From assembly GCA_051744805.1 (NCBI GenBank), contig JBNJDK010000002.1, forward strand, positions 9,791-73,790: 64,000 bases of DNA. The letters are read 5' to 3'. A model generated the notes under the pieces. That model worked only from the letters and a program-made list of their open reading frames with translations. It searched no databases and was not told where the DNA came from. The stretch is from Bacillota bacterium (GTDB lineage: Bacteria > Bacillota > Halanaerobiia > Halanaerobiales > DATFIM01). Below, piece after piece: positions 3,940-25,397 of the stretch (within the stretch, counting starts at the first letter, position 1; each line of letters opens with the position of its first letter). A program made the translations under genes and the position numbers.

Positions 3940-5652
3940 TTGCCTAAAAAAATAACTATTTTAGCTATAGATAAAAAAATTTCTATATTTTTCAAAAAAG
4001 AAATTAATAGAATTTTTAATGGTCTTTTTGAAATAGATTATCGTAGTGCAGATATGGAACCTGTTCCAACCATAGAAAAAACTGACCTTATTTTATTTAC
4101 TGATCCAGATATACTTGATAAATTATATGATATTGTACAATGTAATGCTCCAACCCTTATGATGAAAAGAACTATAACAAGAAAAGCTCTGGACAATTTA
4201 AAAAAATTACCTTCAGGAAAAAAAGCACTTGTAGCAAATATTAATCAATATATGGCAAATGATACCCTTGCTCTTCTTTATCAATTAGGTATAAATCAAT
4301 TAAAATTGAATCCTTTTTATAAAGGTTTGGAAGAATTTCCGAAAAATATTGATTATATAATTGCTCCAGAAAAATATGAATTTTTACCAGAAATAGATGC
4401 TGAAATAATAATTATTGGAAATAGAGTTTTTGATATTTCCAATATTATGGATATATTGAGTCTCCTGGAAGTAGAACGCAAAAAAGCAGAACAAATAATC
4501 AAAAATTATATTTTTCGGGTACCTACTTTCTGGTATGGAGCAAAATATAACTGGAATAAAAGAAACAATCAACCAAAAAAATTAACAGGCTATTTTTCCA
4601 AACATGAATTTATTGATTTAATTGGAAAAAACAAAAAATTTTTAGCTACAAAGAAAAAGGCAAAAAAAATATCTGGAACTAACTCCACAATAATATTATA
4701 CGGAGAAACTGGGACTGGAAAAGAACTTTTTGCAGGAGCAATTCATAATGATTCTCCCCGAAAAAATAATCCTTTTGTTGCTATTAATTGCACTACTTTA
4801 CCAGAAAATCTTTTGGAATCTGAATTGTTTGGTTATGAAAAGGGGGCTTTTACCGGAGCTAAAAAGGAAGGGAAAATTGGTCTTTTTGAAAGAGCAGATA
4901 AAGGTACATTATTTTTAGATGAAATAGGAGATTTGCCTCTATCCTTACAAACAAGACTTCTCCGTGTTCTTGAAGAAAAAGAAATTATGAGAATCGGTGG
5001 AGATTCAATAATACCAGTTGATGTCAGAATTATTGCTGCAACAAATCGCAATTTGCAAAAACTAGTAAATAAAGGAGAATTTAGAAAAGATTTGTATTTT
5101 CGTTTAAATGTATTCCAATTTAATATTCCTTCATTAAGAGAAAGAAGAGATGATATACCTCTTTTAATTGAACATTTTTTTGAAAAATGGCAAAGTAAAA
5201 GAAATTTAAACCAAAATTTTATTTCTTTTTACAAAAATTATAACTGGCCAGGAAATATTCGAGAATTAAAAAATGTACTAAAGAATATGATAACCCTTTC
5301 TCAGGATGATTTAAAACTGGAAAATTTGCCTGATTATCTAAAAAATGAAGATAATTTTAGTAAGGAAATAAAGAAAAATATAGTTTTAAAGTTAATATAT
5401 ATATTAGAAAATGAAAATAAAGATACTGGTAGAAGAACTCTACTTGAACTATTCAAACAATTATATTTTTATATATCAGAAATGAATTTGAGAAAAATAT
5501 TAAAATCACTTGAAGAAGATGATTACATTAAGATAAATAGAGGACGAAAGGGAAATTCCATAACTAAAAAAGGACAAAAATTTTTAATAGAAAATAATTA
5601 TATTAGCAATAATAATGCTGAACTCAGAGAAAAAATAAAAAACTCCTTTTAG
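3940..5652 (+). CDS. Sigma-54-dependent transcriptional activator (bacterial enhancer-binding protein) with atypical N- and C-terminal domains
   Basis: AAA+ core: Walker A GETGTGKE, sigma-54 contact loop GAFTGA, Walker [42 protein letters not shown] start preceded by AGGAGGA plus 7 nt. Confidence 0.9.
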
Positions 5653-16767: not shown

Positions 16768-17310
16768 CTATTGTCGCAATTCCTTTAAATTTTCCTCTAA
16801 ATAATCATTTATCCAATCTACAATCTCAGGATGATTTATTTCTAAACCTTCAATTTCTTTCTTTAATTCCTCTGTATTTAATTCAAATTCTTTATCATTG
16901 TATATATGTTTATATATAAAATCAAGCTGAGGATTAGTTATTATTAATGAAACTATTGTTCCAACTATATCCCCTAAAGGGGCCCGATCAATATGATCAT
17001 ATTGAAATTCAACTTCTAGCTTTGTTCCTTTTTCTTTTTTAGAATCAATTTTTAATTTACCATTACAGTTTTCAGCTGCTTTTTTTAAAAAAGGTAGTCC
17101 TAACCCTACTTCTCTAGTAGTTCTGCTCGTTACAAAAGGGTCAAGAACTTCTTTTTGTTGATCTCTATCCATCCCTGTACCATCATCATTTATTTTTATT
17201 TTAAGTAAATTTTGATCAATTTTTTCAATTATAATAATTTCTACCTTCTCAGCTTCTGCAGCAATTGAATTCTGAACAATATCTAAAATATGTAAAGAAA
17301 TTTCTTTCAT
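16768..17310 (-). CDS. Stand-alone GHKL (histidine-kinase-like) ATPase-domain protein
   Basis: N-box HILDIVQNSIAA, G1 DDGTGM, G2 GLGLPF. No DHp/His-phosphotransfer or sensor domain. About 70 extra C-terminal residues. Confidence 0.75.
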   Translation of the reverse strand: MKEISLHILDIVQNSIAAEAEKVEIIIIEKIDQNLLKIKINDDGTGMDRDQQKEVLDPFVTSRTTREVGLGLPFLKKAAENCNGKLKIDSKKEKGTKLEVEFQYDHIDRAPLGDIVGTIVSLIITNPQLDFIYKHIYNDKEFELNTEELKKEIEGLEINHPEIVDWINDYLEENLKELRQ

Positions 17311-17362
17311 TTATTTCACCTCGCTGGGAACTATTTGTATTATATCATATTCTCTCCAAAGC

Positions 17363-17400
17363 ACAAAAACGGCAGTTTCTCAAAACGAGATAACTGCCGC
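17363..17400 (-). terminator. Rho-independent terminator of the hydrogenase operon
   Basis: Minus strand: CGGCAGTT-atctcgttttgagA-AACTGCCG followed by TTTTTG, about 40 nt after the hydA stop. Confidence 0.8.
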
Positions 17401-17437
17401 TCATCTGAATTATTGTTATTAATTTCTTTTATATTTG

Positions 17438-19159
17438 CTAATTTCTATCTCTTCTTTTATAAGTTGTATGAAGTAAATGATGAGAATCTCCACTAAGTGG
17501 TTCACCAAGGTATTCTTCATAAAGTCTTACTATCATTGGATTTTCATGTGACTTTCTAATCGCTTTACTTTCATCAATACTGGAAAGTCCTTTTCCTCTT
17601 TTTTCTTTTATATCTTTATCTACTGGTAAAGGCTGTCCTCCTCCACCAACACATCCATTAGGACAGGCCATTATTTCAATAAAATCATACTTGCATTCTC
17701 CAGCTTTAACTTTATCTAATAATTCTGCTGCTCTTGATAAGCCATTTGCAATTGCTATATTTAAGGTTTGATCTCCAATTTTTACTTCAACCTCATTAAC
17801 TCCTCTAAAACCAAGATCCAGTCTTTCTAATTCTTCACCGGTTAATTTTTCTTTTACTGTTCTAGCTGCAGCTTCGGCAACTCCTCCGGTTGTACCAAAA
17901 ATAGTTCCAGCTCCTGTAGATTTACCCATCATTTCATCATATTCCTGATCTTCCAGACGAGTGAAATCAAGCCCTATTTCTCTAATCATTCTTGCCAACT
18001 CTCTAGTAGTTAACACTGCATCAGTATCTTTATAACCACTATCATTCATTTCTTTTCTATCTTTTTCAAACTTTTTGGCGGTACAGGGCATAATTGAAAC
18101 TGTATAAATATTTTCTGGATCTATACCACTCTCTTCTGCATAATAAGTTTTTGCAAGAGCAGAAAACATTTGTTGAGGCGATTTCGCTGTAGAAAGATTA
18201 TCCAGAAGTTCTGGATAATTGTGTTCAGCAAATTTTACCCAACCTGGACAACAGGAAGTAATTTGTGGTAAATCTTTTTGCCCTTTTATTCTTTTTAATA
18301 ATTCATTACCTTCTTCCATAATGGTAAGATCAGCAGTAAATTCAGTTGAAAATACTTTGTCAAATCCTATTTTTCTTAAAGAAGCCACCAATTTACCAGT
18401 TACAACTGTTCCAGGTTCATATCCAAATTCTTCACCTAGAGTAGCCTGAATAGCTGGAGCAGTTTGTACTATTACATGTTTTTCTTCATCTTCAATAGCA
18501 TTCCATACTCTATCAATTTCACTAATTTCAGTTATTGCACCTACTGGACAGACTGTTGCACATTGACCACAGTTAGCACAATTAATTTCACTTTGGGGCA
18601 TGTCAAAAGCTGTTTGAACAACTGTATCAAATCCACGTCCACTAAACTGTAAGGCTGAAACCCCTTGGACTTCTTCGCAGACTCTTACACAACGACCACA
18701 TAATATACATTTGTTAGGATCCCTTTTTAAAGCAGGTCCTGTATTATCTATTGTATTTTCACGAGTTTCTCCTTTTAATTCTTCCATATCGTCACTATTT
18801 ATACCTAAACTATAGGTTATATCCTGTAATTCACAACTGCCATTTCTATCACAACCAAGACAATCATTAGGGTGATTGGCCAGTAGTAATTTTACATTTC
18901 TTCTTCTGGCTTTTCTGGCTCTTGCACTTCTAGTATTAATTTTCATCCCATCCTGGGCAGGTGTACAACAGGAAGCAAGTAATTCACCTGATTCTTTATC
19001 TTCAACTACACAAACCCTACATGCACCGTGAATTGTAAGATCAGGGTGATAGCATAAAGTTGGAACATCAATTCCTAATTCTTTAGCTGCATCGAGAATA
19101 GTTGCTCCTTCTTCAACCTGAATTTCCTCATTATCTATAATTAAATTTATTTCGGACAT
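17438..19159 (-). CDS. hndD: [FeFe]-hydrogenase catalytic subunit (HndD / HydA of an electron-bifurcating, NAD(P)-linked complex)
   Basis: Complete H-cluster motifs TSCCPGW, MPCTAKKFE and MACPNGCVGGGGQP. N-terminal 2Fe-2S fold plus His-ligated and 2x[4Fe-4S] motifs (CILCGRCVRVC, CANCGQCATVCP). Confidence 0.95.
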   Translation of the reverse strand: MSEINLIIDNEEIQVEEGATILDAAKELGIDVPTLCYHPDLTIHGACRVCVVEDKESGELLASCCTPAQDGMKINTRSARARKARRRNVKLLLANHPNDCLGCDRNGSCELQDITYSLGINSDDMEELKGETRENTIDNTGPALKRDPNKCILCGRCVRVCEEVQGVSALQFSGRGFDTVVQTAFDMPQSEINCANCGQCATVCPVGAITEISEIDRVWNAIEDEEKHVIVQTAPAIQATLGEEFGYEPGTVVTGKLVASLRKIGFDKVFSTEFTADLTIMEEGNELLKRIKGQKDLPQITSCCPGWVKFAEHNYPELLDNLSTAKSPQQMFSALAKTYYAEESGIDPENIYTVSIMPCTAKKFEKDRKEMNDSGYKDTDAVLTTRELARMIREIGLDFTRLEDQEYDEMMGKSTGAGTIFGTTGGVAEAAARTVKEKLTGEELERLDLGFRGVNEVEVKIGDQTLNIAIANGLSRAAELLDKVKAGECKYDFIEIMACPNGCVGGGGQPLPVDKDIKEKRGKGLSSIDESKAIRKSHENPMIVRLYEEYLGEPLSGDSHHLLHTTYKRRDRN

Positions 19160-19183
19160 CTGTTATCCCTCCTTTTTTAAATT

Positions 19184-20986
19184 CTATCCCTGTGATATTG
19201 CATCTACTGGACAAACTTCTTCACAGGCTCCACAGGAAATACATTTATCTGGGTCAATTTCATAAACTTCTTTTGATTTTCCACTTATAGCATCTACCGG
19301 ACATTCTTTTGCACACATACCACAACCAATACATGTATCTTCATCTATTACATATGCACTTGCCATTCCCGGGCAAACTCCTGCCGGACATTTTTTATCA
19401 TAAATATGTGCTTCATATTCATCTCTAAAATACTGTAAAGTTGAAAGAACAGGATTAGGAGCAGACTGACCTAAACCACAAAGAGCTGTATCTTTAATAT
19501 GATTTGCCAGTTCTTCAAGTAATTGAATATCTCCTTCTTCACCTTTCCCATCACATAATCTATTTAAAATCTCAAGCATTCTTTTTGTTCCCTCACGACA
19601 GGGAGTACATTTGCCACATGATTCACTTTGAGTAAAGTTAAGGAAAAAACGAGCAACATCAACCATACAGGTACTATCATCCATTACAACCATACCACCT
19701 GAACCCATCATAGCTCCAACTTCAAGAAGCGAATCATAATCTATCGGTAAATCAAGATAGTCAGCTGGTATACACCCACCAGATGGACCACCAGTTTGCA
19801 CTGCCTTAAATTCTCTGCCTTCAGCAAGACCTCCACCTATATCAAAGATGACTTCTTTTAAAGTAGTACCCATCGGTACTTCAACAAGCCCTGTGTTATT
19901 AATTTTACCTGTTAAGGCAAAAACTTTTGTACCACTACTATTTTCAGTACCTATAGAAGCAAAATCTTTTCCGCCATTATTAATGATATATGGTATATTA
20001 CCAAAAGTCTCAACATTATTTATATTGGTTGGCTTACCCCATAAACCTTTATTTGCTGGATATGGTGGACGAGGTCTTGGCATACCTCTTTTACCTTCAA
20101 TTGAAGCCATGAGTGCTGTTTCCTCTCCACAAACAAAAGCACCAGCACCTTTTTTAATATTTAATTCAAAATCAAATCCACTATTAAATAGATTTTCACC
20201 TAAAAGACCATATTCTTCAGCATCTTTAATGGCTTTTTTAAGTCTTTCAATTGCAAGAGGATATTCAGCTCTTACATAGACATAACCTTCATTTGCTCCA
20301 ATAGCATAAGCCCCAATAATCATACCCTCTATTATACGATGTGGATCCCCCTCAAGTAAACTTCTATCCATAAAGGCTCCAGGATCTCCTTCATCAGCAT
20401 TACAAATTATATATTTTTTATCACCTTCAGCAGAATTAGCAAACTGCCACTTTAAACCAGTGGGAAAGCCTCCTCCACCTCTACCTCTTAAACCAGAATC
20501 TTTTACTTCTGAAATTATTTCTTCTGGCTTCATTTCAGTTAAAGCTTTACCAGCAGCTTCATAGCCATCAGAAGCTATATATTCATCAATATTTTCAGGA
20601 TCTATTTTTCCACAATTTGATAATACTATTCTTTGCTGTTTTTTATAAAAATCAATATCCTGATAAGAAGGAATACTCTCTTCAGTCATTGGTTCTTTAA
20701 ACAATAGACGTTCTACAGTTCTTCCTTTAAGCAAATGTTCTTCTACAACTTCTTCCATATCTTCAGGCTTTAATTCACAATAAAAAACTCCTTCAGGATA
20801 AATAACCATAATAGGTCCTTTTTCACAAAATCCATGACATCCTGTTTCTACAACTTTAATTTCATCTAAGAGATCATGTTTTGCAAGTTCATCCTGCAAA
20901 CTAAGTTTTACATTTTCTGCACCTGAAGACTTACAACCTGTTCCAGTACAGATCAAAATATGAGAACGATATATAGTTTCATTCAT
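19184..20986 (-). CDS. hndC: NuoF-like NAD(P)H/FMN-binding flavoprotein subunit (HndC / HydB)
   Basis: GLRGRGGGGFPTGLKW, ESCGKCTPCREG, an N-terminal thioredoxin-like 2Fe-2S segment and two C-terminal ferredoxin motifs (CIGCGMCAKECP, CISCGACEEVCP). Confidence 0.95.
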   Translation of the reverse strand: MNETIYRSHILICTGTGCKSSGAENVKLSLQDELAKHDLLDEIKVVETGCHGFCEKGPIMVIYPEGVFYCELKPEDMEEVVEEHLLKGRTVERLLFKEPMTEESIPSYQDIDFYKKQQRIVLSNCGKIDPENIDEYIASDGYEAAGKALTEMKPEEIISEVKDSGLRGRGGGGFPTGLKWQFANSAEGDKKYIICNADEGDPGAFMDRSLLEGDPHRIIEGMIIGAYAIGANEGYVYVRAEYPLAIERLKKAIKDAEEYGLLGENLFNSGFDFELNIKKGAGAFVCGEETALMASIEGKRGMPRPRPPYPANKGLWGKPTNINNVETFGNIPYIINNGGKDFASIGTENSSGTKVFALTGKINNTGLVEVPMGTTLKEVIFDIGGGLAEGREFKAVQTGGPSGGCIPADYLDLPIDYDSLLEVGAMMGSGGMVVMDDSTCMVDVARFFLNFTQSESCGKCTPCREGTKRMLEILNRLCDGKGEEGDIQLLEELANHIKDTALCGLGQSAPNPVLSTLQYFRDEYEAHIYDKKCPAGVCPGMASAYVIDEDTCIGCGMCAKECPVDAISGKSKEVYEIDPDKCISCGACEEVCPVDAISQG

Positions 20987-21010
20987 ATTAGTCTTTTACC
21001 TCCTTCAGTT

Positions 21011-21376
21011 TTATTCTTCCATTCGAGCAATAACAAGATCTTTTACAACATTTCCATTTATAACGTGTTCTACAATTATTTTGCTTACATCTGAAGGTTC
21101 AAGATTTCCATAAGTTATTCTTTCTTTTCCAGGTAATTTCACATCAAGTAACGGCTCTTTTTCACACATACCTATACAACCAGTTTGTGTTACTGTAACA
21201 TCAATATCTCTTTTATTAACTTCTTCCATTACTTTTTTAAGGATTTCTCTTGCTCCAGCTGCTATGCCACAGGTTCCCATTCCAACAATTATTTTAGGTT
21301 TCTCTGTATTATCTCTTGCATCAAGATCTTTTTTAACTTTATCTCTTAATTCATGTAATTCTTCAAGAGATTTCAT
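21011..21376 (-). CDS. hndB: Small thioredoxin-like [2Fe-2S] ferredoxin subunit (HndB-like)
   Basis: GMGTCGIAAGAR ... TGCIGMCEKEP. Start moved to ATG 21376 (GAGAGGTGGG, 7 nt, ATG). Confidence 0.85.
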   Translation of the reverse strand: MKSLEELHELRDKVKKDLDARDNTEKPKIIVGMGTCGIAAGAREILKKVMEEVNKRDIDVTVTQTGCIGMCEKEPLLDVKLPGKERITYGNLEPSDVSKIIVEHVINGNVVKDLVIARMEE

Positions 21377-21409
21377 CTTTAATCCCACCTCTCTATGTCT
21401 ATTAATGTC

Positions 21410-21910
21410 TTAGTCTTTATATTGTTCAATAATTTCTGGTACTTTTTCCGGTGTCAAACGTCCATGAGTATCATCATTAATCATAATAACCGGTGCTAAA
21501 CCACAGGCACCAATACAGGCAACAGTTTCTAAAGTGAATTCAAGATCTTCGGTAGTTTCTCCACTTTCAATACCAAGCTCTTCTTCAATTTTTTCTAAAA
21601 CTGGCCCTGCACCCCTAACATGACAGGCTGTACCCTGACATACTCTAATAATATTCTTTCCTCGAGGTTCTAAATGAAACTGACCATAAAAAGTAACTAC
21701 TCCATAAACCTGGCTTAAAGAAAGGTTTAAATTACAGGCTATTTCTTTCATAACATCTTCAGGCAAATACCCATATTCATTTTGGGCATCTTGAAGAATA
21801 GGAATAAGGTTCTTTTCACTTTTTTCATAGTCAGCCATAATATTATACAGAGGTTTTAGATACTTTTCTAAATTCTTTTTTTCATTACCACAATTACAGT
21901 TACAAGACAT
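21410..21910 (-). CDS. hndA: NuoE-like [2Fe-2S] subunit (HndA / HydC)
   Basis: RVCQGTACHVRG ... VACIGACGLAPV, the NuoE/HoxE Cys pattern. First gene after the promoter. Confidence 0.93.
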   Translation of the reverse strand: MSCNCNCGNEKKNLEKYLKPLYNIMADYEKSEKNLIPILQDAQNEYGYLPEDVMKEIACNLNLSLSQVYGVVTFYGQFHLEPRGKNIIRVCQGTACHVRGAGPVLEKIEEELGIESGETTEDLEFTLETVACIGACGLAPVIMINDDTHGRLTPEKVPEIIEQYKD

Positions 21911-21996: not shown

Positions 21997-22025
21997 ATTA
22001 TATGTTACAAAAAAATCAATGTCAA
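21997..22025 (-). promoter_or_regulatory. Consensus sigma-A promoter of the hnd operon
   Basis: Minus strand: TTGACA (22025-22020), 17 nt, TATAAT (22002-21997), starting 4 nt after the PHP gene stop. Confidence 0.75.
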
Positions 22026-22028
22026 TAG

Positions 22029-22754
22029 TTAATTTAAGTCAAAATTACCAGATTTCAAATTTTTAAATAAATTTTCAAAATTACAGTTTTTAAAACTTGA
22101 TTTATACATTATTTTAATGTCATCTAAATAATGACTATCAGAATTTTTAAGTAATATATATTTTTTTAAATAAGGATACTGCTGCTTTAATTTTTTTCTA
22201 TTTGAATTTTTAGATATTTCTAGAATTTTAAAATTCAAATCTTTTGGAATAAAACCTAAATTTTTTATAATTCCATAACTTTTATCTATGTGAGACGGAA
22301 TAACAATTCCATTCATTTTACTAACTTTACTCACTATTTGATTTATATTTAAATTTACAGCTGTAGCCAACATTCTCTTTTCTTTTGCCTTATAATTATC
22401 ATTTTTATCAGTTAATAATTGATAACCAAAGTATTCTTCATCATTTTCAAGTTCTGGTAAATTTTTATAAATAATTTTTTGCCAGTCAATTAGTCGTTTT
22501 AAATCTGGAAAAAAACAGAGTAAATGTATTTCTTCAGAACTCTCTACTTCCATTCCAGGAATAACAGTAATTCCATATTTTTCAGCTAATTTTATTGTCA
22601 TCTCAACGTTTTTTGCACTATTATGATCAGTTATTGCAATAATATCAAGACCTATTTCATTGGCTTTTTTTAAAATATTTGCAGGTGTCATAACTAAACT
22701 TGCACAGGGAGATAATACAGAATGAATATGAAGATCTATATTATATTTTTTCAT
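22029..22754 (-). CDS. PHP-domain (polymerase/histidinol-phosphatase-type) phosphoesterase
   Basis: N-terminal DLHIHSVLSPCA ... IIAITDHNS, typical of PHP metal-site motifs. Overlaps the upstream gene by 4 nt. Confidence 0.85.
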   Translation of the reverse strand: MKKYNIDLHIHSVLSPCASLVMTPANILKKANEIGLDIIAITDHNSAKNVEMTIKLAEKYGITVIPGMEVESSEEIHLLCFFPDLKRLIDWQKIIYKNLPELENDEEYFGYQLLTDKNDNYKAKEKRMLATAVNLNINQIVSKVSKMNGIVIPSHIDKSYGIIKNLGFIPKDLNFKILEISKNSNRKKLKQQYPYLKKYILLKNSDSHYLDDIKIMYKSSFKNCNFENLFKNLKSGNFDLN

Positions 22755-23101
22755 TTTTTATCTTCTACCTGATTATCTTTTAATTGGTATAATAAACCAG
22801 CCAATTCGTAACTAGTAAGCTTAGAACGTAGAATATTAACTCCTTTTTCTTTAGCTCTTTTAATTGCTTTATCTTCTATTTCAAAATTTTCAGCCACTAC
22901 AACTGCAGCTACCTCTGTCAAGAGAGCAACAGCAATGACATTTTGATGGCTTTGAACTGTAAACCAGAGATCTCCTTTCTGAGCTTTAGCCATTACATTA
23001 CTTAAAAGATCTCCACAATATCCTCCCTCTACTTCTACTTCTAATGATGTTTCTACAACAATTTCTAAATCTAATTTATCGATTATCTTTTTTAATTTCA
23101 T
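22751..23101 (-). CDS. DRTGG-domain protein (paralog 2)
   Basis: About 116 aa, similar in length and pattern to the 24905-25261 product (MKL.K....L......, CG(A/G)DL(M/L)S(D/N)V(L/M)A, (AKE/K)KG(I/V), LL). Start set to ATG 23101 (MKLKKIIDKL); the longer track ORF overlaps the upstream gene further. Confidence 0.7.
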   Translation of the reverse strand: MKLKKIIDKLDLEIVVETSLEVEVEGGYCGDLLSNVMAKAQKGDLWFTVQSHQNVIAVALLTEVAAVVVAENFEIEDKAIKRAKEKGVNILRSKLTSYELAGLLYQLKDNQVEDKK

Positions 23102-24446
23102 CTTCTTCCACCTCACTTTCTTTACCCATAACTGGAGGAAGCTCATGTGCTAATGCTGACATTTCATCAGCAAGATCTCCAACTTTTTTCCTCAACATAA
23201 ATATACAATCTGTTCTTTTGGCCTGACCATTAACTATATCTTCAGCTAAAGTTTCACAGTCTGGTGCTCCACAGGCAGCACAATCAAGACCAGGCAAAAT
23301 TTCAATTTCTTCTTCAATAGCTGTTAATTTTTCCATTGCTTTATCTAAATCTTCATCAAGTTTAGCCACATCTGTAGCCTTAAATTCCTGACTAAGTTCA
23401 TAATTATAAGCTGAAAAATTCTGATCAACCATTAATTTCTCTGGAGATTCATTTTTATATTTTTCAACTAATTTTTTTATATTATATTTAGCCTGATAAG
23501 AATTATTAACATTTAAAACTCCCCCAACACAACCCTGGGGACAGGAAACTAACTCAAAATATTTGATACCTTTAATATTATCACGAGAAATTTCTTCTAA
23601 AATACCTTTAACTTCTTTAATACCAGAAACAGAAATAGTCTCTTTTTCATCATAATCATTCAAAATTTCTTCTTCTCCTCCACTTTGCCCCCAACTAATC
23701 CCTAAAAAAGGACGATCTTCATAATTTTTATCATCTGATGCCATTTTTTCTTCTAAATCATATTCTTCCATTATATCAAGTAATTTATCATAAATTTTTT
23801 CAACAGCAATTGCTCCATCTAAAAAACTTTTTTCCTGGCCTAAAGGGTTTTCAACAGTAGTTAATTTCGCCGGACAGGGAGTTATAAAAAATACACCGAT
23901 TTCATTTTTTGAAATATTCTTCTTTTTTGAAATTTCTCTTTTTACTTTTTCAGCCATTAATTCAACAGGAGATTTAATAGGCACTAAATTTTCCAGTAAT
24001 TCTGGAAACACTAATTTTATTAATCTTACTACAACAGGACAGGATGAAGAAATATAAGGGCCTTCATTTTTAGTTAAAAATTCCTGTGTTTTTTGGGATA
24101 TAGCCTCTGCAGCCATTGCTACATCAAATACTCCTGAAAAGCCTGTCATTTTTAAGCCTTTATAAATTTTATTAATATCTAATTTTTCATTAAATTGTCC
24201 ATAAAAACTTGGGGGAATTAAAGCACAGGAAAATTTATAATTATTTATTTCATCTATATTATTAGTTTCAGTATATTTAGCATGATATTCACAAGTTCTA
24301 ATACATTCTGCACAATCTATACAGAGATCCTCTTTAATCTGAGCTTTACCCTGGTGAACCCTAATTGCTTTTGTTGGACAATTTTTTACACAATTAGTAC
24401 ATCCCTCACATTTATCTTCTTTTAAAAGAACAGAATGTTTTTTCAT
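23076..24446 (-). CDS. [FeFe]-hydrogenase-like Fe-S protein with degenerate H-cluster motifs (putative sensory hydrogenase, HydS-like, group D / M2e type)
   Basis: 2x[4Fe-4S] motifs CEGCTNCVKNCP and CIDCAECIRTCE. H-domain variants SSSCPVVV, TPCPAK and VSCPQGCVGG. C-terminal CAACGAPDC-X16-C (Cx2Cx4Cx16C). Start moved to ATG 24446 (AGGTGA, 5 nt, ATG). Confidence 0.75.
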   Translation of the reverse strand: MKKHSVLLKEDKCEGCTNCVKNCPTKAIRVHQGKAQIKEDLCIDCAECIRTCEYHAKYTETNNIDEINNYKFSCALIPPSFYGQFNEKLDINKIYKGLKMTGFSGVFDVAMAAEAISQKTQEFLTKNEGPYISSSCPVVVRLIKLVFPELLENLVPIKSPVELMAEKVKREISKKKNISKNEIGVFFITPCPAKLTTVENPLGQEKSFLDGAIAVEKIYDKLLDIMEEYDLEEKMASDDKNYEDRPFLGISWGQSGGEEEILNDYDEKETISVSGIKEVKGILEEISRDNIKGIKYFELVSCPQGCVGGVLNVNNSYQAKYNIKKLVEKYKNESPEKLMVDQNFSAYNYELSQEFKATDVAKLDEDLDKAMEKLTAIEEEIEILPGLDCAACGAPDCETLAEDIVNGQAKRTDCIFMLRKKVGDLADEMSALAHELPPVMGKESEVEEDEIKKDNR

Positions 24447-24466
24447 ACTTTTCACCTACTCTCCAC

Positions 24467-24889
24467 TTAAACATTTAATACTGCTTTTATAGTTGTTCCT
24501 TCATTTTCAGAAGATTTTATATCTAACTGATCTGAATACTTTTCTACATTATTTAAACCCATTCCAGCTCCAAAACCTAATTCGCGTATTTCATCTTCAG
24601 CAGTTGAATATCCAGCCTGTAAGGCTTTATCTACATCTTTTATTCCAGGGCCATCATCCTCGGCAAAAATTTGCACTTCATTATTGGCAATTATAGCTGT
24701 TATTTTACCACCTTCAGAATGAATTATTATATTCATTTCTAATTCATAGGTAATAATAGAGATTTTTCTTATAATCTGAGTATCTACTCCTAACTTTCGC
24801 AAAAGAGATTTTAATTTACTGGAAACTTCTCCACCTTTTTTGAAATTTCTTCTCTCTATTTCTTCTTCAAGTAATTTTTTACTACCCAA
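24467..24889 (-). CDS. Small stand-alone GHKL ATPase (anti-sigma-factor-kinase-like, SpoIIAB/RsbW-like)
   Basis: 140 aa. E..(M)N...H N-box region, DDGPGI (G1), GFGAGMGL (G2). No DHp domain. TTG start after GGAGGA plus 6 nt. Confidence 0.75.
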   Translation of the reverse strand: MGSKKLLEEEIERRNFKKGGEVSSKLKSLLRKLGVDTQIIRKISIITYELEMNIIIHSEGGKITAIIANNEVQIFAEDDGPGIKDVDKALQAGYSTAEDEIRELGFGAGMGLNNVEKYSDQLDIKSSENEGTTIKAVLNV

Positions 24890-24904
24890 AATAATTCCTC
24901 CACT

Positions 24905-25261
24905 CTACTCAATTTCTTGTAATTTTTCTGGTCTTATCCCATTACTATACAATAAACCACAACTTTCAAATAATGGTTTTTTACTATAAAAAAGTTTAAT
25001 CCCTTTTTCTTTAGCAAGTTGAACCGTATCTAAAACAGGTTTTTTACCTCTTACAAAACAGATAACTTCAATATCTGTCATTTCTGCTGTTCTAACAACC
25101 TGAGGATTTGTAAGGCCAGTAAGAAGCATAGTTTTGCTATGGGAAAAGGCCAAAACATCACTCATTAAATCAGCTCCACAGGCTGTTTCTATTTCCACAT
25201 CTTCATATTCTTCAAAAACTGATTCAGCCCCTAACAATTCAACTACTTTAGTTAATTTCAT
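24905..25261 (-). CDS. DRTGG-domain protein (paralog 1)
   Basis: 118 aa. ACGADLMSDVLAF..., LLTGL.NPQVVRTAEM; first gene of the cassette, SD GGAGG upstream. Confidence 0.7.
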   Translation of the reverse strand: MKLTKVVELLGAESVFEEYEDVEIETACGADLMSDVLAFSHSKTMLLTGLTNPQVVRTAEMTDIEVICFVRGKKPVLDTVQLAKEKGIKLFYSKKPLFESCGLLYSNGIRPEKLQEIE

Positions 25262-25288: not shown

Positions 25289-25306
25289 TTGTGATTTTTA
25301 TAACAA
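25289..25306. promoter_or_regulatory. Candidate Rex (NADH/NAD+-sensing repressor) operator
   Basis: TTGTGAT-TTTT-ATAACAA against TTGTKAA-N4-TTMACAA. The deviations are symmetric. Lies between the -10 box and the SD of the first cassette gene. Confidence 0.4.
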
Positions 25307-25327
25307 TATTTCCATTAATTTATTTTA

Positions 25328-25356
25328 ATTATACGATAATCAAGACAAATTATCAA
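25328..25356 (-). promoter_or_regulatory. Sigma-A promoter of the sensory cassette
   Basis: Minus strand: TTGATA (25356-25351), 17 nt, TATAAT (25333-25328). Confidence 0.65.
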
Positions 25357-25361
25357 CTAGA

Positions 25362-25397
25362 AATAGCAGCCCCTTCTAGCAATTAAGGGCTGCTATT
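25362..25397 (-). terminator. Hairpin terminator after the amidohydrolase gene
   Basis: ATAGCAGCCC (25363-25372) pairs with GGGCTGCTAT (25387-25396). The U-run is strong on the plus reading and weaker on the minus reading. Confidence 0.55.

What the first reader, a model, noticed from the sequence alone, without database searches (positions are those of the whole stretch)
23076..24446. Hydrogenase paralog keeps all four H-cluster Cys ligands, loses the proton-relay Cys and the GGGQP motif, and gains a C-terminal Cx2Cx4Cx16C motif
The catalytic HydA/HndD in this same window allows a direct comparison. HydA has TSCCPGW; the paralog has SSSCPVV, where the first Cys of the CC pair (the proton-relay position in characterised enzymes) is Ser. 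HydA has MPCTAKKFE; the paralog has TPCPAKLTT, keeping the Cys and the Lys. HydA has MACPNGCVGGGGQP; the paralog has VSCPQGCVGGVLNV, keeping both Cys but losing GGQP. The paralog also has two N-terminal ferredoxin-type 4Fe-4S motifs. Its C-terminal CAACGAPDC-(16 residues)-C matches the Cx2Cx4Cx16C motif that I recall as the hallmark of the M2e / group D putative sensory class. This pattern predicts an H-cluster that binds but turns over slowly, which suits a sensor rather than a catalyst.
Basis: partly seen in the sequence, partly recalled or inferred. Interest (0 to 1): 0.6.

Follow-up and report, generated by a model that had tools for sequence, protein, structure and literature searches.

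The report
Putative hydrogen-sensing hydrogenase, group D
This gene encodes an ordinary member of an already described class of slow, probably hydrogen-sensing [FeFe]-hydrogenases (group D / M2e), sitting where such genes usually sit: just upstream of the cell's main hydrogen-producing enzyme.

Summary
The ORF (23076..24446, minus strand, 456 aa) has two ferredoxin-type 4Fe-4S motifs, an H-domain with all four H-cluster cysteines, Ser in place of the proton-relay Cys, GGVLNV in place of GGGGQP, and a C-terminal Cx2Cx4Cx16C motif (Pfam PF04060).

The protein is 42% identical over its full length to TamHydS, the characterised group D (M2e) enzyme, but only 24% identical to the HydA in the same window. 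It has no PAS domain. It keeps the Glu pair that the TamHydS authors propose as the group D proton pathway.

At least 596 species genomes encode a relative, so this is a new member of a known kind. "Sensor" remains a hypothesis in the literature as well.

Two things go beyond the finding:
- HydS lies in a strongly conserved five-gene module: DRTGG protein, SpoIIAB-like GHKL ATPase, HydS, DRTGG protein, PHP phosphoesterase.
- In other organisms these partners occur naturally fused to HydS. That points to the still unknown signalling route of group D.

About 20% of species carry Ser rather than Ala at the relay position. No enzyme with that Ser appeared in the group D papers read here.

The parts
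23076..24446 (-). hydS: group D (M2e) putative sensory [FeFe]-hydrogenase, 456 aa
   Evidence: It is 42% identical to TamHydS over its full length. The ATG at 24446 is preceded by AGGTGA.
24279..24428 (-). N-terminal ferredoxin-like domain with two CxxCxxCxxxC motifs (aa 13-23 and 42-52)
   Evidence: Pfam Fer4 family models. The eight Cys are invariant in 200-201 of 202 homologues.
23520..24227 (-). H-domain (aa 74-309). H-cluster ligands are C136, C191, C302 and C306. S135 is at the CpI C299 position, T189 at M353, V300 at M497 and K194 at K358. E258 and E298 are equivalent to TamHydS E252 and E289.
   Evidence: PF02906, E 1.5e-32. Alignment to the window's HydA and to TamHydS. Family statistics. 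AF2 pLDDT is about 90 over this domain and the Foldseek hits are all [FeFe]-hydrogenases.
23199..23297 (-). C-terminal Fe-S domain with Cx2Cx4Cx16C (C389, C392, C397, C414). Asp precedes the first and last Cys, followed by the EDIV motif.
   Evidence: PF04060, E 2e-11. Spacing verified. The four Cys, D388, D413, E402 and D403 (456-aa numbering) are conserved in 200-202 of 202 sequences; these are the charged residues highlighted for TamHydS in PMC13104023.
24905..25261 (-). g1: small DRTGG-like protein (118 aa), first gene of the sensor module
   Evidence: No Pfam hit, but 30% identical to g4 (E 7e-15). Present upstream of hydS in 66 of 73 species loci. Fused to g2 in three genomes and to HydS in P0173 and P0195.
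24467..24889 (-). g2: SpoIIAB-like GHKL ATPase / putative serine kinase (140 aa)
   Evidence: HATPase_c and HATPase_c_2. NCBIfam spIIAB hit, E 1.6e-14, below the curated cutoff. Best PDB matches are anti-sigma F factor. Conserved ATP-binding-type motifs (ExxxN...H, DxGPG, GFGAGMGL) are intact. Adjacent to hydS in 76 of 77 loci. Fused to HydS in P0134.
22751..23101 (-). g4: DRTGG-domain protein (116 aa from the ATG at 23101). Its start overlaps the hydS 3' end by 26 nt.
   Evidence: PF07085. SD sequence GAGGTGG. AF2 pLDDT 94, with the best fold match AF1212 DRTGG at TM 0.78. Present in 68 of 75 loci. Fused to the HydS C-terminus in eight representative clusters.
22029..22754 (-). g5: PHP-family metal-dependent phosphoesterase (241 aa)
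   Evidence: PF02811. Conserved His/Asp/Glu residues of the kind that bind metal in PHP enzymes (H9, H11, H44, E69, H77, H155, D206, H208) are conserved. Present in 66 of 73 loci.
25289..25356 (-). Putative promoter of the sensor module (TTGATA-17-TATAAT, 25356..25328) followed by a Rex-like palindrome, TTGTGATTTTTATAACAA (25289-25306)
   Evidence: These are consensus matches only.
21997..22025 (-). Perfect sigma-70 consensus (TTGACA-17-TATAAT) between g5 and hndA. This is probably a separate promoter for the hydrogenase structural genes.
   Evidence: This is a consensus match only.
16768..21910 (-). Structural genes: hndA (21410-21910), hndB (21011-21388), hndC (19184-20986) and hydA/hndD (17438-19159), a group A bifurcating-type [FeFe]-hydrogenase. 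A stand-alone histidine-kinase-type ATPase domain protein, g10 (16768-17310), follows.
   Evidence: Pfam and NCBIfam. HydA scores 850 bits against NF040763, above the cutoff of 765. The same genes follow the module in 29 of 52 loci.

Best explanation
The gene encodes a group D (M2e) [FeFe]-hydrogenase homologue, HydS.

Proposed cofactors and chemistry (inferred by homology with TamHydS):
- It binds a normal H-cluster through C136, C191, C302 and C306.
- It also binds two N-terminal [4Fe-4S] clusters and one C-terminal [4Fe-4S] cluster.
- The group A proton pathway is dismantled: C299 to Ser, E279 to Lys, S319 to Val, and M353/M497 to Thr/Val.
- Protons reach the cofactor through the group D Glu pair (E258 and E298).
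- The enzyme therefore reacts with H2 at low turnover, and a reduced H-cluster state is stabilised.

Proposed role (inferred from gene context and fusions):
- It acts as the H2-input subunit of a five-protein module: DRTGG protein g1, SpoIIAB-like GHKL ATPase g2, HydS, DRTGG protein g4, and PHP phosphoesterase g5.
- An H2-dependent conformational change in HydS is passed through its C-terminal Fe-S domain and helix to the DRTGG domains and the ATPase/kinase. [quoted passage not shown]
- The PHP enzyme resets the system.
- The output adjusts expression or activity of the adjacent bifurcating Hnd/HydABC hydrogenase.

Shown here: family membership, cofactor-binding residues, module conservation and domain fusions. 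Inferred: H2 sensing in vivo, the direction of signalling, the phosphorylation chemistry and the target.
For: Family membership:
- 42% identity to TamHydS over the full length, against 24% to the window's own HydA.
- Domain set is 2x Fer4 + Fe_hyd_lg_C + PF04060, with no PAS.
- All 16 cluster Cys, K358 and the E252/E289 equivalents are invariant or nearly so across 202 homologues.
- The 82 HydS H-domains form one clade, separated from 39 group A HydA sequences by a long stem.
- Published TamHydS data show low rates, high H2 affinity and a stabilised Hred state. They also show that E252 and E289 are needed for activity.

Module:
- g2 is adjacent in 76 of 77 species loci, g1 in 66 of 73, g4 in 68 of 75, g5 in 66 of 73. 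The loci span Bacillota, Atribacterota, Spirochaetota, Coprothermobacterota and others.
- hnd genes follow in 29 of 52 loci.
- 11 of the 150 closest representative clusters are fusions of HydS with g4-type DRTGG (8), g1-type DRTGG (2) or the g2 ATPase (1). None has PAS. Three were checked on their contigs.
- g1 and g2 are fused in three genomes.
- The conserved ATP-binding-type and metal-binding-type residues of g2, g5 and g10 are retained.
- PMC11406978 reports HATPase_C fused to HydDB group C1 hydrogenases.
Against: - No in vivo evidence for H2 sensing exists for any group D enzyme. TamHydS does catalyse H+/H2 interconversion.
- H2 does not reduce the TamHydS C-terminal cluster, and mutating it barely changes activity.
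- No DNA-binding protein, sigma factor or STAS protein is conserved next to the module, so the output is unknown.
- g2 reaches only 54 bits against the SpoIIAB model, whose cutoff is 135.
- g4 has the DRTGG fold, not a STAS fold. Nothing I found reports phosphorylation of a DRTGG domain.
- About 44% of loci with enough flank lack hnd genes directly downstream.
- Group B and C references were not available for the tree.
Confidence: 0.65

Rival explanations
1. It is a slow but genuinely catalytic hydrogenase. For example, it could be an alternative or auxiliary H2-activating subunit that exchanges electrons with the Hnd complex or with ferredoxin, with no signalling role.
For: [quoted passage not shown] The two N-terminal clusters form a normal electron relay. 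H2 reduces an N-terminal cluster but not the C-terminal one. hydS is co-located with hnd genes.
Against: Measured TamHydS rates are very low. Across phyla, the tightest gene partners are an ATPase/kinase, DRTGG proteins and a phosphoesterase, not redox proteins. Those partners are fused to HydS in 11 of 150 clusters. In the window, hnd has its own consensus promoter. 23 of 52 loci have the module without hnd downstream.
Confidence: 0.15
2. It senses something other than H2 through its Fe-S clusters or H-cluster, such as cellular redox state, O2 or CO.
For: TamHydS shows unusual reactivity with CO and O2, including formation of an 'Hair' state. The C-terminal cluster has a low potential and does not respond to H2. 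A Rex-like box upstream of the module ties the locus to NADH/NAD+ control.
Against: Every residue needed for a complete H-cluster, plus the group D proton pathway, is under strong purifying selection. That is hard to explain unless H2/H+ chemistry matters. H2 induces reduction and a secondary-structure change in TamHydS.
Confidence: 0.1
3. HydS and its partners regulate the hydrogenase complex directly at the protein level, by binding or phosphorylating a Hnd subunit or the g10 ATPase-domain protein, rather than by controlling transcription.
For: No transcription factor is conserved in or beside the module. A stand-alone histidine-kinase-type ATPase domain (g10) sits inside the hnd operon in 27 of 29 loci. 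The module and hnd are usually one uninterrupted gene string.
Against: There is no direct evidence. This rival differs from the main model only in the output step. The published Tam locus is said to be flanked by an AraC-type regulator.
Confidence: 0.08
4. It is a decaying paralogue of HydA with no function.
For: It has lost several group A catalytic motifs.
Against: The ORF is intact with a good ribosome-binding site. At least 596 species encode a relative. 325 clusters at 50% identity score E <= 1e-30. All cofactor ligands are invariant.
Confidence: 0.02

Closest known systems
TamHydS (Thermoanaerobacter mathranii HydS, WP_013150113), the characterised group D / M2e [FeFe]-hydrogenase
   Same: - Same domain order and nearly the same length (456 vs 435 aa), with 42% identity end to end.
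- Same 16 Cys.
- The Lys at CpI K358 is kept.
- The E252 and E289 equivalents are kept.
- The Asp residues beside the C-terminal cluster and the EDIV motif are kept.
- Both are encoded upstream of a bifurcating hydrogenase next to a histidine-kinase-like ATPase.
   Different: - The relay position is Ser (S135) rather than Ala (A137).
- M353 is Thr rather than Ser, and M497 is Val rather than Leu.
- The outermost residue of the proposed Tam pathway (D265) is Ser here.
- The host is a halophile-type Halanaerobiales bacterium rather than a thermophile.
TmHydS / RaHydS / HfsB (group C, M2f, PAS-containing putative sensory [FeFe]-hydrogenases)
   Same: Two N-terminal clusters, an H-domain without the relay Cys, a C-terminal Cx2Cx4Cx16C cluster, and linkage to kinase/phosphatase genes and to bifurcating hydrogenases.
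   Different: There is no PAS domain here. The partners are DRTGG proteins and a PHP phosphoesterase. The group C literature instead mentions Ser/Thr kinases and phosphatases. No group C sequence could be obtained, so the distance to group C was not measured.
HydDB [FeFe] group C1, 'histidine kinase-linked (putative)'
   Same: A putative sensory hydrogenase co-encoded with a histidine-kinase-like ATPase. HATPase_C fusions are reported in Hydrogenedentota, like P0134 here.
   Different: That C1 equals group D/M2e is my inference from the descriptions; I did not test it with HydDB. The partner ATPase here lacks a phospho-accepting dimerisation domain and looks more like SpoIIAB than like a histidine kinase.
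SpoIIAB / SpoIIAA / SpoIIE-type partner-switching modules
   Same: A small GHKL serine-kinase-like protein, two small paralogous partner proteins and a phosphoesterase are encoded together.
   Different: The partners have the DRTGG fold, not STAS. The phosphoesterase is PHP, not PP2C. No sigma factor is linked. This is a resemblance in layout only.
Regulatory [NiFe]-hydrogenase HoxBC with the HoxJ kinase (established knowledge; summarised in PMC5707799)
   Same: The same logic: a crippled hydrogenase acts as H2 input to a kinase that controls hydrogenase genes.
   Different: The metal site and protein family are unrelated. HoxJ is a PAS histidine kinase with a response regulator, and none is present here.

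Membership tests
Group D (M2e) [FeFe]-hydrogenase | H-domain with the four H-cluster Cys ligands (one in L1, one in L2, two in L3) | tested here: met
   C136, C191, C302 and C306 align with the HydA ligands. PF02906, E 1.5e-32. Invariant in 202 of 202 sequences.
Group D (M2e) [FeFe]-hydrogenase | [quoted passage not shown] | tested here: met
   Two CxxCxxCxxxC motifs at aa 13-23 and 42-52.
Group D (M2e) [FeFe]-hydrogenase | C-terminal Cx2Cx4Cx16C motif | tested here: met
   C389-x2-C392-x4-C397-x16-C414. PF04060, E 2e-11. The feature is defined in PMC8163306.
Group D (M2e) [FeFe]-hydrogenase | No PAS domain after the C-terminal cluster (separates M2e from M2f / group C) | tested here: met
   No PAS model matches at E <= 0.01. 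Only 42 residues follow the last Cys.
Group D (M2e) [FeFe]-hydrogenase | Relay Cys (CpI C299) and the group A proton pathway are not conserved | tested here: met
   C299 to Ser, E279 to Lys, S319 to Val, R286 to Lys. E282 is kept, as in TamHydS.
Group D (M2e) [FeFe]-hydrogenase | Group D alternative proton pathway (TamHydS E252, E289, S249, D265) | tested here: inconclusive
   E258, E298 and S255 are present. The D265 equivalent is Ser (S274), as in the other Halanaerobiales; Asp occurs in 68 of 80 species. The two residues tested by mutagenesis are both present.
Group D (M2e) [FeFe]-hydrogenase | M353 replaced by a hydroxyl residue (Ser/Thr) | tested here: met
   T189. The family has Thr in 169 and Ser in 31 of 202 sequences. 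The feature is stated.
Group D (M2e) [FeFe]-hydrogenase | Full-length homology to the type enzyme TamHydS | tested here: met
   42% identity, E 7e-117, residues 7-448 vs 5-434. The sequence was taken from the SI of PMC6984386 and contains a few OCR slips.
Group D (M2e) [FeFe]-hydrogenase | Phylogenetic placement in the group D clade relative to groups A-G | tested here: inconclusive
   In an NJ tree, 82 HydS sequences including the window protein and TamHydS are monophyletic against 39 group A sequences. No group B, C or E-G references were available.
Group D (M2e) [FeFe]-hydrogenase | Encoded upstream of a bifurcating group A hydrogenase, next to a kinase-like gene | tested here: met
   g2 is adjacent to hydS, and hndABCD lies about 1.2 kb downstream. 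The same arrangement appears in the loci and in the literature.
Group D (M2e) [FeFe]-hydrogenase | Binds the [2Fe] subcluster; low turnover, high H2 affinity, stabilised Hred | not testable with these tools
   This needs expression, [2Fe]adt maturation, FTIR/EPR and activity assays.
Group C (M2f) sensory [FeFe]-hydrogenase (TmHydS type) | C-terminal PAS domain | tested here: not met
   No PAS hit. No PAS hit in the 10 longest of the 150 closest clusters; the rest are too short to hold one.
Group A prototypical / bifurcating [FeFe]-hydrogenase | Motifs TSCCPxW, MPCxxKxxE and ExMACxxGCxxGGGQP, plus a small-subunit-like C-terminus | tested here: not met
   The motifs are SSSCPVV, TPCPAKLTT and ELVSCPQGCVGGVLNV, with no Fe_hyd_SSU domain. 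NCBIfam group A models score far below their cutoffs.
   Every named close homologue is bacterial. The best characterised relative, TamHydS, binds the [2Fe] cofactor.
SpoIIAB-type partner-switching module (considered for the neighbours) | GHKL Ser kinase + STAS antagonist + PP2C phosphatase + sigma factor | tested here: not met
   The kinase-like protein is present, but below the NCBIfam cutoff. The partners are DRTGG, not STAS. The phosphoesterase is PHP. No sigma factor is linked.

The most novel reading that the evidence does not exclude
Group D HydS proteins may be the H2-input component of a signalling device not described in the papers I could search. That device is built from two DRTGG-domain proteins, a SpoIIAB-like GHKL ATPase and a PHP phosphoesterase, with no PAS, STAS, PP2C or response regulator. 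Gene order is conserved across several phyla, and HydS-DRTGG and ATPase-HydS fusions recur. These partners would then answer the question the TamHydS authors themselves pose: how a PAS-less sensory hydrogenase transmits its signal. The Ser-type active site found here and in about 20% of species would be a natural variant that tunes the sensor.
Probability: 0.4. Interest if true: 0.6.

Novelty: new member of a known kind. Interest (0 to 1): 0.27.

Why it matters
The gene itself adds one more sequence to a family of hundreds, so it matters little. The family does matter. Group D hydrogenases are thought to tell fermenting bacteria how much H2 has accumulated, which governs the split between H2, acetate and ethanol. 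Nobody has shown that they sense H2, or how the signal leaves the protein.

The comparative data gathered here name concrete partners to test: the DRTGG proteins, the GHKL ATPase and the PHP phosphoesterase. They also identify a natural Ser variant at the position the TamHydS group has been mutating (A137).

Tried and rejected
- GTG start at 24455: rejected in favour of the ATG at 24446, because of the SD position and the homologue N-termini.
- ATG at 23146 as the g4 start: rejected in favour of 23101, because of the SD sequence and because the alignment to g1 starts at Met16.
- Group C reference (TmHydS) for a proper A-D phylogeny: not obtained. The SI of PMC10055695 has no sequence. The JACS 2018 paper is not held. 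The PDB has no group C or D structure.
- DRTGG proteins as STAS-like kinase substrates: the fold search shows a DRTGG / HPr-kinase N-terminal fold, not STAS. Phosphorylation of Ser34 or Thr48 remains pure speculation.
- A conserved regulator, sigma factor or other gene flanking the module: none was found in more than 8 of 80 loci. Rex genes appear in 5.
- Literature linking DRTGG to hydrogenases: two papers mention both words, and neither title or abstract concerns this module.
- AF2 model of HydS: the ferredoxin and C-terminal domains came out at low confidence (pLDDT below 50-70), so no inter-domain geometry was interpreted.
Full report
**What is there**

The finding lies in a minus-strand gene string. 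The ORF tool reports 23076..24455 with a GTG start. An AGGTGA ribosome-binding site sits 5 nt before the ATG at 24446, and homologues start MKKHSV.

Pfam finds three elements:
- a 2x[4Fe-4S] ferredoxin-like N-terminus;
- the [FeFe]-hydrogenase H-domain (PF02906, E 1.5e-32);
- the 'FeS' domain PF04060 (E 2e-11) at the C-terminus.

No PAS domain or other domain is found. BLASTP against the HydA in the same window (17438..19159; NCBIfam NF040763, 850 bits against a cutoff of 765) aligns SSSCP with TSCCP, TPCPAK with MPCTAK and VSCPQGCVGG with MACPNGCVGG. The matched cysteines are therefore the homologues of the H-cluster ligands. An AF2 model has pLDDT of about 90 over the H-domain, and its top 50 PDB fold matches are all [FeFe]-hydrogenases.

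**Which family**

The literature defines the M2e subclass, or group D, by four features:
- two N-terminal clusters;
- an H-domain lacking the relay Cys and the group A proton pathway;
- a C-terminal Cx2Cx4Cx16C motif;
- no PAS domain.

Thermoanaerobacter mathranii HydS (TamHydS) is the characterised member (PMC8163306).

I took the TamHydS sequence from the SI of PMC6984386. It carries a few OCR slips. The window protein aligns with it end to end at 42% identity (E 7e-117). Identity to the window's own HydA is only 24%.

I built a 202-sequence family alignment from the window protein, TamHydS, 80 species-level genome loci and 120 database homologues. It shows the following:
- All 16 cluster cysteines are invariant or nearly so (200-202 of 202).
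- The Lys equivalent to CpI K358 is invariant.
- The residues equivalent to TamHydS E252 and E289 are Glu in 200 and 202 sequences. Here they are E258 and E298. PMC10407848 identifies these as the group D proton relay.
- M353 is Thr or Ser throughout (Thr here).
- The group A pathway is gone: E279 to Lys, S319 to Val, R286 to Lys. E282 is retained, as in TamHydS.

An NJ tree of H-domains puts the window protein, TamHydS and the 80 orthologues in one clade. A long stem separates that clade from 39 group A HydA sequences. HMMER against 1.84 billion representatives finds 325 clusters at E <= 1e-30. None of the 10 longest of the 150 closest clusters has a PAS hit, and the rest are too short to hold one.

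I could not obtain group B or C reference sequences. The "C versus D" call therefore rests on three things: absence of PAS, the Glu at the TamHydS E252 position, and identity to TamHydS. It does not rest on a full tree.

**How ordinary is it**

At least 596 of the species genomes scanned encode a relative. The closest named ones are Halanaerobiales (54-62% identity). "Group D M2e" genes upstream of trimeric bifurcating hydrogenases were tabulated as long ago as 2012 (PMC3561251). This is a new member of a known kind.

Two residues differ from TamHydS:
- The relay position is Ser, not Ala. Ser occurs in 16 of 80 species, in several separate lineages: Halanaerobiales, Tepidanaerobacter and Thermosediminibacteraceae, Spirochaetes and Coprothermobacterota.
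- The outermost residue of the proposed Tam pathway (D265) is Ser in the Halanaerobiales.

The TamHydS group has studied A137C. I found no study of a Ser at this position in the group D papers I read.

**Surroundings**

hydS is the third of five tightly packed genes:
- g1: DRTGG-like protein, 24905-25261
- g2: SpoIIAB-like GHKL ATPase, 24467-24889
- hydS
- g4: DRTGG protein, 22751-23101; its start overlaps the end of hydS by 26 nt
- g5: PHP phosphoesterase, 22029-22754

A consensus promoter and a Rex-like palindrome precede g1. A perfect TTGACA-17-TATAAT consensus precedes hndA. Next come hndA, hndB, hndC and hydA, followed by a stand-alone histidine-kinase-type ATPase domain protein, g10.

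Among 80 species loci from several phyla, partner genes are present as follows:

| Gene | Loci with gene / loci with enough flank |
|---|---|
| g2 | 76 / 77 |
| g1 | 66 / 73 |
| g4 | 68 / 75 |
| g5 | 66 / 73 |
| hnd genes downstream | 29 / 52 |

No other gene, and no DNA-binding protein, sigma factor or STAS protein, is conserved beside the module.

Natural fusions tie the parts together physically:
- Eight of the 150 closest representative clusters are HydS with a g4-type DRTGG domain at the C-terminus.
- Two have a g1-type DRTGG domain at the N-terminus.
- One has the g2 ATPase at the N-terminus.
- Three of these were confirmed on their contigs, one of them on contigs from three samples.
- g1 and g2 are one ORF in three genomes.

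The conserved ATP-binding-type and metal-binding-type residues of g2, g5 and g10 are retained. g4 models confidently (pLDDT 94) as a DRTGG fold, close to AF1212, the CBS-pyrophosphatase insert and the HPr kinase N-domain. It is not a STAS fold. In the searchable literature, no title or abstract links DRTGG proteins to hydrogenases. One paper notes HATPase_C fused to HydDB group C1 enzymes. HydDB calls C1 "histidine kinase-linked (putative)".

**How it most likely works**

The following is shown or strongly implied by sequence:
- The protein can bind a complete H-cluster and three accessory clusters.
- It lacks the fast group A proton pathway.
- It keeps the group D Glu relay.

By homology with TamHydS, it should react with H2 at low turnover and hold a reduced H-cluster state over a wide potential range.

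The following is inferred from context and fusions. HydS is the input of the DRTGG / GHKL / PHP module. The signal leaves through the C-terminal domain and helix, onto which DRTGG is fused in other species. The signal is probably a conformational change, because H2 does not reduce the TamHydS C-terminal cluster. The chemistry of the output and its target are unknown. The adjacent hnd operon or its protein products are the obvious candidates.

I put about 0.95 on group D membership and about 0.6 on a sensory or regulatory role. Rivals are a slow catalytic role, sensing of something other than H2, and direct protein-level control of the Hnd complex. A decayed paralogue is excluded by conservation.

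**Verdict**

This is a new member of a known kind, of low to moderate interest in itself. The more interesting by-product is the conserved module and the fusions. They offer testable partners for an open question that the TamHydS authors state explicitly: how a PAS-less sensory hydrogenase signals.

Noticed in passing
window 22029-25261 (minus strand); loci L001-L080: hydS sits in a five-gene module: DRTGG-like g1, SpoIIAB-like GHKL ATPase g2, HydS, DRTGG g4 and PHP phosphoesterase g5. The module is conserved across several phyla (g2 76/77, g1 66/73, g4 68/75, g5 66/73 loci). No paper in the searchable library connects DRTGG proteins with hydrogenases.
   Followed up: yes
P0123, P0147, P0184, P0186, P0211, P0229, P0236, P0245, P0173, P0195, P0134; L081-L084; L010 9016-9957, L022 9143-9949, L024 9065-9958: Natural fusions of the module parts occur in other organisms: HydS + C-terminal DRTGG (8 clusters), DRTGG + HydS (2), GHKL ATPase + HydS (1), and DRTGG + ATPase in one ORF (3 genomes). 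None has a PAS domain.
   Followed up: yes
window 16768-17310 (minus strand): A stand-alone histidine-kinase-type ATPase domain protein (g10, 180 aa) follows hydA here. In 27 of 29 related loci, including the closest Halanaerobiales, its orthologue lies between hndA and hndB. The window therefore carries a local gene-order rearrangement.
   Followed up: partly
window 25289-25306; loci L001-L080: A Rex-like palindrome, TTGTGATTTTTATAACAA, lies between the -10 box and the g1 ribosome-binding site. In the 80 loci, 21 of 31 matches to the same pattern lie within 400 bp upstream of the module or of hndA. This fits Rex (NADH/NAD+) control alongside the H2 sensor.
   Followed up: partly
window 21997-22025 (minus strand): A perfect 12/12 sigma-70 consensus (TTGACA-17-TATAAT) lies in the 118-nt gap between g5 and hndA. 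It suggests the hydrogenase structural genes have their own strong promoter, separate from the sensor module.
   Followed up: no
window 24036-24038 (Ser135 codon); 23625-23627 (Ser274 codon): The relay position (CpI C299, TamHydS A137) is Ser here and in 16 of 80 species from several lineages. In Halanaerobiales it co-occurs with Ser at the TamHydS D265 position. No study of this variant was found in the group D papers read here.
   Followed up: partly
g1 and g4 families (window 24905-25261 and 22751-23101): Both DRTGG paralogue families share an invariant Ser34 in a D-[LM]-[LM]-S motif and a conserved Thr48. These are candidate functional or phospho-acceptor sites, but there is no evidence for modification.
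   Followed up: no
window 23076-23101 and 22751-22754: hydS and g4 overlap by 26 nt in different frames, and g4 and g5 overlap by 4 nt. This suggests translational coupling within the module.
   Followed up: no
window 25355-25395 (minus strand): A GC-rich hairpin followed by a T-rich tract (AGCAGCCC...GGGCTGCTATTTCT) lies after the upstream amidohydrolase gene. It probably terminates that gene and insulates the sensor module promoter.
   Followed up: no
SI of PMC6984386 (TamHydS sequence): The machine-read TamHydS sequence is 434 aa rather than 435. Its residue numbering is off by one in places when compared with published residue numbers (for example CPT-AIRV and NGGE). It is good enough for alignment but not for exact numbering.
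   Followed up: yes
window 3940-5652 (plus strand): A 570-aa protein with a Walker-A-like motif (GETGTGKE), resembling sigma-54-dependent activators, is encoded on the opposite strand from its neighbours, in the only plus-skewed stretch of this part of the window. It is unrelated to the finding.
   Followed up: no
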